From the human T2T-CHM13v2.0 reference genome, Homo sapiens: a stretch of DNA of 64,000 bases. Position numbers and translations under genes: made by a program. The notes beneath the pieces were generated by a model. It made no database searches and was not told the origin of the DNA. It saw only the letters and a list, made by a program, of their open reading frames with translations. Shown one piece after another: positions 38,084-47,142 of this stretch (within the stretch, counting starts at the first letter, position 1; every line of letters starts with the position of its first letter). The stretch lies in the NCBI RefSeq assembly GCF_009914755.1, contig NC_060934.1. One strand, given 5' to 3'.

Positions 38084-38669
38084 AAGGAATCTGTTTATTT
38101 CATTAAACTGTCGAATGTATTGACACAAAATTGTTCATCATATTTTCTTATCCCTTATATATTTCCTGGATCTCTATTAATGTTTCCTGTTTATTCTTAT
38201 ATTGTTAATTTGAACTTTCTTTTTTTTTCTTAGTAGGGGTTTATCAGTTTTGTTATTCTTTTCAAAGAAACAACTTTTGGTTTTGTGGTTTTGTTGATTT
38301 TTTTCTACTTTACAGTACTCTTCCAGATTTTTTTTTTTTTTACTGATATTCTGCCTACTTGTTCTAGCAACTGAAAGAAAAGTGAGAAAGAGAAGTGTTG
38401 AGAAAACTAACTGTAATAGCTTTATCTATTTCTCTTTTCTGTTCTGTCCATTATTGCTTCAAGTATTTTAAGGCTCTGTTAGTATCAGGCTTACAGACAT
38501 TTAAAATTATGTCTCTTTAATTAATTGATTCTTACATCATTATGAAATATTTCTCAATACTGCTAGTATTATCTCATGTTTTGAAGTTTATTTTATTGGC
38601 TAGTAATATAGCTCCCTCCAGTTTTCTTAATGATTAGTATCTGCATGGTATCTCTTTGGATTCTTTTAC

Positions 38670-39870
38670 TTTTTTTTTTTTTATTTTTTTTTACTTTTTT
38701 TTATTATACTTTAAGTTTTAGGTGCACATTGTGCAGGTTAGTTACATACGTATACATGTGCCACGCTGGTGCGCTGCACCCACTAACTCATCATCTAGCA
38801 TTAGGTATATCTCCCAATGTTATCCCTCCCCTCTACCCCCACCACACAACAGTCCCCAGAGTGTGATATTCCCCTTCCTGTGTCCATGTGATCTCATTGT
38901 TCAATTCCCACCTATGAGTGAGAATATGCGGTGTTTGGTTTTTTGTTCTTGCGACAGTTTACTGAGAATGATGATTTCCAATTTCATCCATGTCCCTACA
39001 AAGGACGTGAACTCATCATTTTTTATGGCTGCATAGTATTCCATGGTGTATATGTGCCACATTTTCTTAATCCAGTCTATCATTGTTGGACATTTGGGTT
39101 GGTTCCAAGTCTTTGCTATTGTGAATAATGCCACAATAAACATACGTGTGCATGTGTCTTTATAGCAGCATGATTTATAGTCCTTTGGGTATATACCCAG
39201 TAATGGGATGGCTGGGTCAAATGGTATTTCTAGTTCTAGATCCCTGAGGAATCGCCACACTGACTTCCACAATGGTTGAACTAGTTTACAGTCCCACCAA
39301 CAGTGTAAAAGTGTTCCTATTTCTCCACATCCTCTCCAGCACCTGTTGTTTCCTGACTTTTTAATGATTGCCATTCTAACTGGTGTGAGATGGTATCTCA
39401 TTGTGGTTTTGATTTGCATTTCTCTGATGGCCAGTGATGATGAGCATTTTTTACACCTTATACAAAAATCAATTCAAGACGGATTAAAGACTTAAACATT
39501 AGACCTAAAACCATAAAAACCCTAGAAGAAAACCTAGGCATTACCATTCAGGACATAGGCATGGGCAAGGACTTCATGTCTAAAACACCAAAAGCAATGG
39601 CAACAAAAGACAAAGTTGACAAATGGGATCTAATTAAACTAAACAGCTTCTGCACAGCAAAAGAAACTACCATCAGAGTGAACAGGCAACCTACAAAAGG
39701 GGAGAAAATTTTCGCAACCTACTCATCTGACAAAGGGCTAATATCCAGAATCTACAATGAACTCAAACAAATTTACAAGAAAAAAACAAACAACCCCATC
39801 AAAAAGTGGGCGAAGGACATGAACAGACACTTCTCAAAAGAAGACATCTATGCAGCCAAAAAACACATGA
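38670..39870 (-). mobile_element. 5'-truncated, twin-primed L1PA2-like element (38670-39452 minus; 39453-39870 plus)
   Basis: PolyT at left, clean inversion junction, TSD TCTTTTACTTTT on both sides. Confidence 0.95.
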
Positions 39871-40881
39871 CTCTTTTACTTTTAACCACTTTGTATATAT
39901 TTGAAGGGAATATTTTGTAGACAGTATAGTTAGGTCTTGCTACTTTATCCAGCCTGATGATTGCTGTCTTTAGAATATTTAGATCATTTAAACTTAATGT
40001 AATTATTTATATGGTTGGATCTGAATGAATTATCTTGTTATTTCCTATTTCTCCCAATCTGTTCTTGTTCCCTTTTCCCTTTTTTTCCTGCCATATTTGA
40101 AATTGAATACTTTTTAGTTTTCCATTTTATCTCCACTACTGGCCTATTATAAATATACTTGTATCTTTGTAGCTTTAGTGATTGTGCTCGTGTTTAAAAT
40201 ATGCACATTTAACCTGCCACAACATAACTTCAAATATTATACCACGTCACATACAAAATATAAAAACTTTGTAATAAAATTTATCTATTTCCTCCTTCCT
40301 GTCTTTTGTGCTACTGTCATCATAATCTAACTACTGTAGGACTGTTATACTAGAGAAGCTACATGCAAGTCCTCTGGTAGACAGTCCCAGATAAAACTAG
40401 GTTTTGGGTTATCTTTGCCAAAGTGACAGAAATGTGATTACAGCTGTCTTTTATCCTCCAGACCGCATTGAGCTCATTCTCGAGTTGAAGGCCACCAAGT
40501 GACCTCAGGTGATGCTACATGAAAAAGAATAACCATCAGCTGAACCTGCCCTTTTCTCTGGCCCACAAATTGTGAGGTACAATAAAATGGCTGTGTCTTC
40601 AGGGGATGTGTTTAGGTATTTTCTTACACAGAATTAGAGAACCATAACAGAATCTAGTAAAGGGAAGTGGAATTCTGTAATAAAATCTTAAAACATTGCT
40701 CTCTTCAAAGCTGTCAGACAGGGACATTTAAGTCTGCAGAGGTTACTGCTGTCTTTTTGTTTGTCTGTGCCCTGCCCCCAGAGGTGGAGCCTACAGAGGC
40801 AGGCAGGCCTCCTTGAGCTGTGGTGGGCTCCGCCCAGTTGGAGCTTCCCGGCTGCTTTGTTTACCTAATCAAGCCTGGGCA

Positions 40882-41334
40882 ATGGCGGGTGCCCCTCTCC
40901 CACCCTCACTGCCGCCTTGCAGTTTGATCTCAGACTGCTGTGCTAGCAATCAGCGAGACTCCGTGGGTGTAGGACCCTCCGAGCCAGGTGTGGGATATAA
41001 TCTCGTGGTGCACCATTTTTTAAGCCCGTCGGAAAAGCGCAGTATTCGGGAGGGAGTAACCCGATTTTCCAGGTGCCATCTGTCACCCCTTTCTTTGACT
41101 CGGAAAGGGAACTCCCTGACCCCTTGCGCTTCCCAAGTGAGGCAATGCCTCGCCCTGCTTCGGCTCGCGCACCCACTGACCTGCGCCCACTGTCTGGCAC
41201 TCCCTAGTGAGATGAACCCAGTACCTCAGATGGAAATGCAGAAATCACCGTCTTCTGCATCGCTCACGCTGGGAGCTGTAGACCGGAGCTGTTCCTATTC
41301 GGCCATCTTGGCTCCTCCGCAGCTGGAGATCTGA
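40882..41334 (+). CDS. L1 ORF0 homolog extended to 150 aa across the inversion junction
   Basis: MAGAPLPPSLPPCSLISDCCASNQRDSVGVGPSEPG is the ORF0 N-terminus; expression unknown. Confidence 0.6.
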   Translation: MAGAPLPPSLPPCSLISDCCASNQRDSVGVGPSEPGVGYNLVVHHFLSPSEKRSIREGVTRFSRCHLSPLSLTRKGNSLTPCASQVRQCLALLRLAHPLTCAHCLALPSEMNPVPQMEMQKSPSSASLTLGAVDRSCSYSAILAPPQLEI

Positions 41335-41573
41335 GTACGGGCAGACTGCCTCCTCAAGTGGGTCCCTGACCCCTGACCCCTGAGCAGCCTAACTGGGAGG
41401 CACCCCCCAGCAGGGGCACACCGACATCTCACACGGCAGGGTATTCCAACAGACCTGCAGCTGAGGGGTCCTGTCTGTTAGAAGGAAAACTAACAAACAG
41501 AAAAGACATCCCCACCAAAAACCCATCTGTACATCACCATCATCAAAGACCAAAAGTAGATAAAACCACAAAG

Positions 41574-45600: not shown

Positions 45601-46478
45601 CCATTCAGGACATAGGCATGGGCAAGGACTTCATGTCTAAAACACCAAAAGCAATGGCAACAAAAGCCAAAACTGACAAATGGGATCTAATTAAATTAAA
45701 GAGCTTCTGAACAGCAAGAGAAACTACCATCAGAGTGAACAGGCAACCTACAAAATGGGAGAAAATTTTCGCAACCTACTCATCTGACAAAGGGCTAATA
45801 TCCAGAATCTACAATAAACTCAAACAAATTTACAAGAAAAAAACAAACAACCCCATCAAAAAGTGGGCGAAGGACATGAACAGACACTTCTCAAAAGAAG
45901 ACATTTATGCAGCCAAAAAACACATGAAAAAATGCTCATCATCACTGGCCATCAGAGAAATGCAAATCAAAACCACAATGAGATACCATCTCACACCAGT
46001 TAGAATGGCAATCATTAAAAAGTCAGGAAACAACAGGTGCTGGAGAAGATGTGGAGAAATAGGAACACTTTTACACTGTTGGTGGGACTGTAAACTAGTT
46101 CAACCATTGTGGAAGTCAGTGTGGCGATTCCTCAGGGATCTAGAACTAGAAATACCATTTGACCCAGCCATCCCATTACTGGGTATATACCCAAAGGACT
46201 ATAAATCATGCTGCTATAAAGACACATGCACACGTATGTTTATTGTGGCATTATTCACAATAGCAAAGACTTGGAACCAACCCAAATGTCCAACAATGAT
46301 AGACTGGATTAAGAAAATGTGGCACATATACACCATGGAATACTATGCAGCCATAAAAAATGATGAGTTCACGTCCTTTGTAGGGACATGGATGAAATTG
46401 GAAATCATCATTCTCAGTAAACTGTCGCAAGAACAAAAAACCAAACACCGCATATTCTCACTCATAGGTGGGAATTGA
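42654..46478 (+). pseudogene. L1 ORF2 (EN-RT), disrupted
   Basis: Split into at least 6 ORF pieces by frameshifts and stops; FADD motif present. Confidence 0.95.
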
Positions 46479-46711
46479 ACAATGAGATCACATGGACACA
46501 GGAAGGGGAATATCACACTCTGGGGACTGTTGTGTGGTGGGGGTAGAGGGGAGGGATAACATTGGGAGATATACCTAATGCTAGATGACGAGTTAGTGGG
46601 TGCAGCGCACCAGCGTGGCACATGTATACATATGTAACTAACCTGCACAATGTGCACATGTACCCTAAAACTTAAAGTATAATAAAAAAAATTTAAAAAA
46701 TTAAAAAAAAA

Positions 46712-46860
46712 AGTAAAAGAATCCAAAGAGATACCATGCAGATACTAATCATTAAGAAAACTGGAGGGAGCTATATTACTAGCCAATAAAATAAACTTCA
46801 AAACATGAGATAATACTAGCAGTATTGAGAAATATTTCATAATGATGTAAGAATCAATTA
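46712..46860 (+). repeat. Inverted copy of 38522-38670 (flank of the upstream L1)
   Basis: Exact reverse complement over about 149 bp. Confidence 0.97.
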
Positions 46861-47142
46861 TACATATGTAACTAACCTGCACAACGTGCACATGTACCCT
46901 AAAACTTAAAATATAATAATAAAAAAAAAAACATACACACACACACACACAAAAAAAAAACAAACATGTGGCATTGGCTTTGGGACCAGAGGTGAGCAGA
47001 AGCTGGAAGTGACTTAAGAAGACTGTTAGTGAAGGTTTGAACAACATTAATGAAAACCTTATGGTGGATAGATGAATAACTCTTCTTATGCAGTGGGAAG
47101 TTTGTAACACTGTTCCTCACATGAAATAGAAAAGACAAAATA

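What the first reader, a model, noticed from the sequence alone, without database searches (positions are those of the whole stretch)
38522..46931. Long-tract gene conversion between two inverted L1s that mimics a 3' transduction
After the full-length L1's first polyA lies an exact ~149-bp inverted copy of the upstream L1's flank. It joins through TA microhomology to a second 60-nt L1 3' end, which carries its own polyA and the real TSD. By my count the inverted-orientation shared segments (38701-39452 vs 45928-46685) differ by only 3 substitutions plus one 7-bp indel and share unusual variants. The direct-orientation segments (39451-39870 vs 45508-45927) differ at 12 of ~420 sites. Inference: a break near the L1 3' end invaded the inverted copy ~7 kb away, copied through polyA into the flank, then end-joined. 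This leaves a ~0.9-kb near-perfect inverted repeat that could promote inversion of the spacer or form dsRNA.
Basis: partly seen in the sequence, partly recalled or inferred. Interest (0 to 1): 0.7.

Follow-up and report, generated by a model that had tools for sequence, protein, structure and literature searches.

The report
Recombination copy mimicking L1 transduction
In an intron of human ZNF438, about 0.9 kb of one old LINE-1 copy and its neighbouring DNA recurs, almost unchanged and inverted, inside a second LINE-1 6.5 kb away, likely through a DNA-repair or replication copying error that looks like retrotransposon-carried flanking DNA; the mechanism is known, and the case is mainly a caution for transduction catalogues.

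Summary
L1 'A' (38659-39883) and L1 'B' (40690-46967) share an inverted repeat, 38522-39452 versus 45927-46860. Outside the polyA it differs by 3 substitutions and one 7-bp indel, against 12 of 417 differences in their direct-orientation overlap. Six shared rare alleles are not subfamily markers: 44 of 60 relatives carry none and none carries more than two. The 148-bp flank is native to A and appeared exactly only at these two sites. A is 5'-truncated and promoterless, and the flank copy ends in a 2-bp join to a second L1 3' end, not in a polyA, so this is not a transduction. Best reading (0.7): a homology-started copy from A into B ran past the homology and closed by end-joining. That is long-tract conversion with non-canonical termination, or an inverted-repeat template switch; the two cannot be told apart here. 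Corrections: B is itself 5'-inverted, its TSD more likely ends at 46967, the tract's left edge lies in 45925-46109, and 2-bp microhomology is chance-level. No inversion is listed here among 44 genotyped genomes. Ape orthologs could not be examined. Known mechanism, neat new instance; interest 0.3.

The parts
38522..38669 (-). Donor flank (148 bp, including most of A's 3' TSD), part of an ancient L1 ORF2 remnant into which A inserted
   Evidence: Exact inverted copy at 46713-46860; ~70% to other genomic repeats; collinear with the other flank of A along L1 ORF2
38659..38673 (.). TSD of L1 A, left copy (15 bp, 1 mismatch to the right copy)
38670..39452 (-). L1 A: polyA and sense 3' part (donor of the tract)
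39451..39870 (+). L1 A: inverted 5' piece (twin-priming type inversion); not converted, 12 of 417 differences from B
39869..39883 (.). TSD of L1 A, right copy
40690..40696 (.). Probable left TSD of L1 B (6-7 bp)
   Evidence: short, and partly alignable to L1
40697..41318 (-).
   Evidence: In related full-length L1s this piece and the next match opposite strands about 10 bp apart
41319..45924 (+). L1 B body: rest of 5' UTR, open ORF1 (41574-42590), ORF2 broken into several frames; unconverted, 23 rare alleles in 1625 sites examined
45925..46685 (+). L1 B segment homogenised with A; left edge between 45925 and 46109
46686..46712 (+). First polyA of B (diverged from A's tail)
46713..46860 (+). 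Copied flank (pseudo-transduction), ending in the TA join at 46859-46860
46859..46931 (+). Second L1 3' end with polyA; two substitutions relative to the first end; inferred to be B's original end
46928..46967 (+). TSD-like heptamer (46928-46934), (AC)n, A-run, and the probable true right TSD (46962-46967)
   Evidence: related repeats align from 46962 onward, with the query starting at 46960

Best explanation
About 0.75-0.93 kb of L1 A, its polyA and 148 bp of its flank are present as an inverted near-exact copy at the 3' end of L1 B, and were likely copied there in one repair or replication event that began by L1-L1 homology and ended by end-joining. Inferred steps: (1) a free 3' end in B (broken end or stalled nascent strand) paired with the inverted homologue A 6.5 kb away, at or within ~185 bp of the left limit of homology, or with heteroduplex corrected up to that limit; (2) synthesis ran through A's 3' UTR and polyA into non-homologous flank; (3) the strand was released and joined at a 2-bp TA overlap to B's own remaining last ~60 nt. 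B's intervening sequence was lost, with a net gain of 234 bp. Shown: the repeat, its direction for the flank, the private shared alleles, the junction. Inferred: a single event, a DNA template, B's original end, and age. Pairwise divergence is 0.33% (95% 0.07-0.97%), likely after the human-chimp split if ~1.2% human-chimp divergence (recalled) applies and no later homogenisation occurred. No function is implied.
For: Tract identity far above related L1 pairs: 3 vs minimum 8 among 731 pairs. Six shared rare alleles; 44 of 60 relatives carry 0, 14 carry 1, 2 carry 2. Flank exact at only these two places in two own-genome searches that scored 40 of 265 and 40 of 93 candidates. A has its own 15-bp TSD and its two flanks are collinear along L1 ORF2 with a 10-bp overlap, above 200 shuffles each, so the flank is native to A and the spacer is not inverted at A. 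B's body carries 23 rare alleles in 1625 sites but 1 private allele in 761 tract sites (p=0.002), so the tract is much younger than B. The experimental precedent ends in microhomology or inserted bases with resection of the second end (PMC5104497).
Against: All three donor-side changes since the copy cluster within 75 bp (P~0.02). B's first 3' end has the majority allele at every site where A, the first end and the second end differ, which a patchy or multi-step history would also give. The polyA tails differ although the flank is exact. The 2-bp microhomology is chance-level (19%). No rare allele marks 45925-46371 in either copy, so the tract there rests on low difference alone: 1 in 447 vs minimum 3 among 730 pairs. 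No ape or second human haplotype was seen. Relatives were top BLAST hits, a biased sample.
Confidence: 0.7

Rival explanations
1. Multi-step or patchy history: a template switch first duplicated the flank (possibly with B's own 3' end), and later gene conversion between the inverted arms, perhaps repeated or two-way, homogenised the rest. The event could then be older than 0.33% divergence suggests.
For: Clustered A-private changes and the majority-allele state of the first 3' end; divergent polyA; the tract reaches about the full length of homology.
Against: Needs two or more events. If the second end were a recent duplicate of the first, it would have gained 2 substitutions in 60 bp since an event at ~0.17% per lineage.
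Confidence: 0.13
2. RNA-templated repair or endonuclease-independent L1 insertion: the right end of a break in B primed on ZNF438 pre-mRNA, which reads A in sense with its polyA and flank. Reverse transcriptase copied flank, polyA and L1 3' part, and the cDNA was resolved by homology with B.
For: Orientation fits: ZNF438 is on the minus strand (annotation supplied with the finding), and B's tract equals that transcript's sense strand. The product would be identical.
Against: Priming at a 2-bp overlap that happens to lie 148 nt past a homologous L1 end in a ~190-kb transcript is an unlikely coincidence; homology-first explains the choice of template. There is no spliced or edited signature in the tract.
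Confidence: 0.07
3. The second 3' end is an independent tiny L1 insertion at the end of the copied flank, not B's original end.
For: A separate ~90-bp L1 3' fragment at 54451-54546 shows such insertions occur nearby, with a fold-back at the same L1 base. No relative links the second end to B's body: the best match to it shares 0 of 22 rare B alleles.
Against: No TSD of its own is evident at its 5' side, and B's probable TSD encloses it.
Confidence: 0.05
4. Genuine 3' transduction, or a chimera formed when B inserted, with A or its transcript as source.
For: Two polyA tails with unique-looking sequence between them, inside one TSD, which is the operational definition used by transduction callers (PMC12350158 methods passage).
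Against: A is ~1.2 kb, 5'-inverted and lacks a promoter. The flank is followed by L1 sequence, not polyA. B's body is about ten times more diverged than the tract and its ORF2 is broken. A's unconverted piece is no closer to B than unrelated copies (12 of 417).
Confidence: 0.02
5. Misassembly or polishing artefact that homogenised two nearby L1s.
For: Only one assembly was seen.
Against: The arms differ by 3 substitutions, an indel and distinct polyA tails, and the TA junction to a diverged second end is novel sequence that collapse would not create. The whole structure is under 9 kb, within long-read span (general knowledge).
Confidence: 0.03

Closest known systems
Long-tract gene conversion with non-canonical (microhomology or end-joining) termination (Hartlerode et al. 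2016, PMC5104497; abstract and passages read)
   Same: Homology-started copying runs past homology and rejoins the second end by short microhomology with loss of second-end sequence.
   Different: There a reporter in mouse cells with a sister-chromatid donor; here a natural germline product with an ectopic inverted L1 donor.
Four-point template switch, type 3-2-1-4, creating or perfecting an inverted repeat (Loytynoja and Goldman 2017, PMC5453318; passages read)
   Same: Same order of switch points: leave in B, copy the reverse complement from A into its flank, return further along B; the result is a perfected and extended inverted repeat.
   Different: Their model covers short-range events within one fork and excludes long-range switches; here ~0.9 kb is copied from 6.5-8 kb away using ~97% repeat homology.
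Inverted duplications and TE-mediated rearrangements in human SV catalogues (PMC12350158, PMC9675761; passages read); DUP-TRP/INV-DUP (one homologous and one microhomologous junction: recalled; PMC4352052 seen as a listing only)
   Same: Inverted copy of a few hundred bp (median 284 bp for inverted duplications in PMC12350158); inverted L1 pairs are known substrates for inversions.
   Different: Most catalogued inverted duplications lack breakpoint homology (8.8% have it). Here the homologous junction is hidden inside L1, so the event would surface as a 234-bp insertion at an L1 tail.
L1 3' transduction (bioRxiv 10.1101/2021.07.12.451456 and PMC12350158; passages read)
   Same: L1, polyA, flank of another L1, second polyA and TSD.
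   Different: The source is truncated, local and inverted; the flank is followed by a second L1 end; the identity to the source is confined to a young tract.

Membership tests
L1 3' transduction | Second polyA directly after the transduced flank | tested here: not met
   60 nt of L1 3' end intervene
L1 3' transduction | Source is a promoter-bearing, full-length element | tested here: not met
   A is ~1.2 kb and 5'-inverted, with no 5' UTR
L1 3' transduction | Whole daughter element equally related to the source | tested here: not met
   12 of 417 vs 3 of 754
L1 3' transduction | One TSD encloses element and flank | tested here: inconclusive
   6-7 bp candidate only; continuity of the target repeat not confirmed (one search found no relatives of the left flank)
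Long-tract conversion with non-canonical termination / inverted-repeat template switch | Acceptor carries donor-private alleles over a contiguous tract | tested here: met
   Six shared rare alleles, at most 2 in any of 60 relatives
Long-tract conversion with non-canonical termination / inverted-repeat template switch | Copy extends beyond homology into donor flank, donor left intact | tested here: met
Long-tract conversion with non-canonical termination / inverted-repeat template switch | Termination by microhomology or inserted bases at the second end | tested here: inconclusive
   2-bp overlap present, but 19% of random joins reach 2 bp or more
Long-tract conversion with non-canonical termination / inverted-repeat template switch | Ancestral unconverted allele exists (outgroup or other haplotype) | not testable with these tools
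   No ape or other human genomes are held (no relatives)
L1-mediated NAHR inversion | Spacer inverted, flanks exchanged | tested here: not met
   A's TSDs and flanks are collinear in this assembly; no row at chr10 30.97-30.99 Mb among 20 chr10 rows of Table S1, PMC10150506
L1PA2 subfamily (for A and B) | Subfamily-diagnostic bases against a curated consensus | not testable with these tools
   Label recalled only. Pfam confirms L1 ORF1, RT and EN domains; nearest relatives found are 97-98% identical

The most novel reading that the evidence does not exclude
This is a specimen of a recurrent, unrecognised class of 'pseudo-transductions': recombination between nearby L1s that carries a donor's polyA and flank into an acceptor's tail. 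Such events could account for part of the reported claim that truncated elements transduce as often as full-length ones (bioRxiv 10.1101/2021.07.12.451456), and the L1 3' UTR palindrome at which this event rejoined may be a preferred break or re-priming site.
Probability: 0.2. Interest if true: 0.55.

Novelty: new member of a known kind. Interest (0 to 1): 0.3.

Why it matters
It is a readable natural record of homology-started, end-joined copying between endogenous L1s. It also shows how such events can forge the two-polyA signature used to' transductions and source elements, and can make an old L1's 3' end look younger or more related to a neighbour. It leaves a ~0.93-kb inverted repeat at ~99.6% identity outside the polyA, in a ZNF438 intron, a plausible but unproven substrate for a 6.5-kb inversion or a pre-mRNA duplex. 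No function or phenotype is indicated.

Tried and rejected
Shared alleles as subfamily markers: rejected. Flank copy on other L1s: none among scored candidates (lower bounds). Net inversion of the spacer in this assembly: rejected. A as a daughter of B: rejected, since A's unconverted piece is as distant as unrelated copies. A sister element linking the second 3' end to B's body: not found; the best match to the second end shares 0 of 22 rare B alleles. The nearby ~90-bp L1 fragment at 54451-54546 as source of either end: no shared distinctive alleles. Continuity of B's target repeat: only the right flank had relatives, so it stays open. A genome-wide count of similar double-ended L1s was not done, so the frequency of this class is open. 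Literature: eight completed full-text searches listed no paper evidently describing this locus; a ninth gave the template-switch papers. Supplement searches found no inversion or 234-bp variant here: PMC10150506 file 2; PMC12350158 file 2, cut within Table 18 and without an inversion table in the readable part; PMC12350169, two files, where the id format may not match my terms. The T2T transduction table (bioRxiv supplement) could not be seen and may list this locus. Richardson and Jasin 2000, Tremblay 2000 and Szak 2003 were not held and are recalled only.
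Full report
Observation. The inverted match 38522-39452 vs 45927-46860 has 3 substitutions and one 7-bp indel outside the polyA. The direct match 39451-39870 vs 45508-45927 has 12 mismatches in 420. The flank copy is exact and 148 bp long, and it meets a second L1 3' end at a TA overlap. The polyA tails of donor and copy differ by several bases.

Anatomy. Element A is a short L1 with an inverted 5' piece and a 15-bp TSD with one mismatch (38659-38673, 39869-39883). 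Its two flanks, aligned separately to B's ORF2, are collinear with a 10-bp overlap and score above all 200 shuffles each (123 vs maximum 96; 164 vs maximum 134). So A sits in an ancient L1 remnant, the flank is native to A, and the spacer is not inverted there. Element B is full-length in content but also 5'-inverted: in related L1s, window 40691-41318 and 41318-41900 match opposite strands about 10 bp apart. ORF1 is open, ORF2 is split across frames, and Pfam finds L1 ORF1, RT and endonuclease domains in 3 of 4 frames scanned. B's TSD is short. A heptamer at 40690-40696 recurs at 46928-46934, and a hexamer recurs at 46962-46967 after an (AC)n run. Three related repeats align to the right flank from 46962 (the query began at 46960), favouring the later copy. 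The left flank had no relatives, so this is not settled. The subfamily label L1PA2 and the LTR-like nature of B's target are recalled, not tested.

Is the similarity real homogenisation? I fetched 70 loci. Four were the window itself, two had too little L1 coverage and three were dropped as duplicates, leaving 61. A and B share six alleles seen in at most 12% of these, all in 46424-46615. Of 60 relatives covering all six sites, 44 carry none, 14 one and 2 two. Over the tract A and B differ at 3 of 754 sites; the minimum is 8 among 406 pairs of the close set and 16 among 325 pairs of the more distant set. Over the direct overlap their 12 differences are ordinary (90% of close pairs have 12 or fewer). 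Fisher p=5e-4. The relatives are top BLAST hits (40 scored of 6342 and of 7408 candidates), so this is a biased sample, but the close set is biased towards similarity. The flank occurs exactly only at the two window sites among scored candidates; other matches are mostly ~70%.

Extent and age. A two-rate likelihood puts the left edge at 45925, with a support range of 45925-46109, so the tract spans nearly all of the available homology. The B-private base at 46047 may predate the event. The net gain in B is 234 bp. Divergence between the arms is 0.33% (95% 0.07-0.97%). B's body has 23 rare alleles in 1625 sites against 1 private allele in 761 tract sites (p=0.002), so the tract is much younger than B. 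Against a recalled human-chimp divergence of ~1.2% it is likely human-lineage, unless later conversion reset the clock.

Mechanism. Shown: an inverted copy from A into B that passes beyond homology, with a homologous left junction and a non-homologous right junction. Inferred: a 3' end in B paired with A, was extended through polyA and flank, was released and was joined to B's remaining last 60 nt. A double-strand break with aborted synthesis-dependent annealing and a replication template switch give the same product. The 2-bp overlap is not evidence by itself (19% of random joins). Results against a clean single event: the three donor-side changes cluster in 75 bp (P~0.02); B's first 3' end has the majority base at all sites that separate A, the first end and the second end; the polyA tails differ; and no relative ties the second end to B's body. 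These keep a patchy or multi-step history at ~0.13. An RNA-templated route through ZNF438 pre-mRNA fits the orientation but needs a lucky priming site (~0.07). True transduction is nearly excluded: the source is promoterless, the flank is not followed by polyA, and relatedness is confined to a young tract.

Known context. Long-tract conversion that ends by microhomology or inserted bases at a resected second end is established in mouse cells (PMC5104497; abstract and passages). The switch order equals type 3-2-1-4 of the short-range four-point model, which excludes long-range cases (PMC5453318; passages). Inverted duplications of median 284 bp are the commonest non-MEI inversion class in 1,019 genomes, and transduction calling there rests on a second polyA (PMC12350158; passages). 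Inverted L1 pairs of median 97.1% similarity mediate inversions (PMC9675761; passages). The T2T repeat paper reports truncated elements transducing as productively as full-length ones (bioRxiv 10.1101/2021.07.12.451456; passages); its table could not be read. No inversion is listed at this locus among the 20 chr10 rows of a 44-genome T2T table (PMC10150506 supplement). Further supplement searches were blank but partial. Full-text searches (listings only) showed no paper evidently on this locus; most subscription papers are not in the library.

Verdict. It is a new member of a known kind with no sign of function; the inversion and dsRNA consequences are untested, and a ~97% inverted repeat would have predated the event. 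Interest 0.3. The bolder reading, a recurrent class of pseudo-transductions, has probability ~0.2 and would merit ~0.55.

Noticed in passing
window 54451-54546: A separate ~90-bp L1 3' fragment with polyA. Its 5' end is a perfect 22-bp palindrome centred at 54461|54462, the same L1 base at which B's second end rejoins (centre of a 10-bp palindrome in the 3' UTR). Two events at one base in one window may hint at a preferred site.
   Followed up: partly
window 40697-41318: B's 5' UTR is inverted at its first ~620 bp with a small deletion, so both neighbouring L1s are 5'-inverted insertions; B's sense promoter start now points away from its ORFs.
   Followed up: partly
window ~35946 (chr10:30973947): PMC12350158 Table 18 lists a polymorphic truncated L1 insertion (id length 4422) about 2.6 kb left of A's flank. 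The listed TSD was not found exactly in the window. In carriers it would add a third L1 near the inverted pair.
   Followed up: partly
window 46928-46967: B's tail holds an (AC)n microsatellite between two TSD-like copies, which makes the TSD ambiguous.
   Followed up: partly
window 49967-51371, 53123-53814, 58113-59004: Older L1 fragments at 63-83% identity to B's 3' half, in both orientations.
   Followed up: no
L003 and L005: Each of these loci holds two tandem L1 pieces of different divergence, probably nested or adjacent insertions.
   Followed up: no
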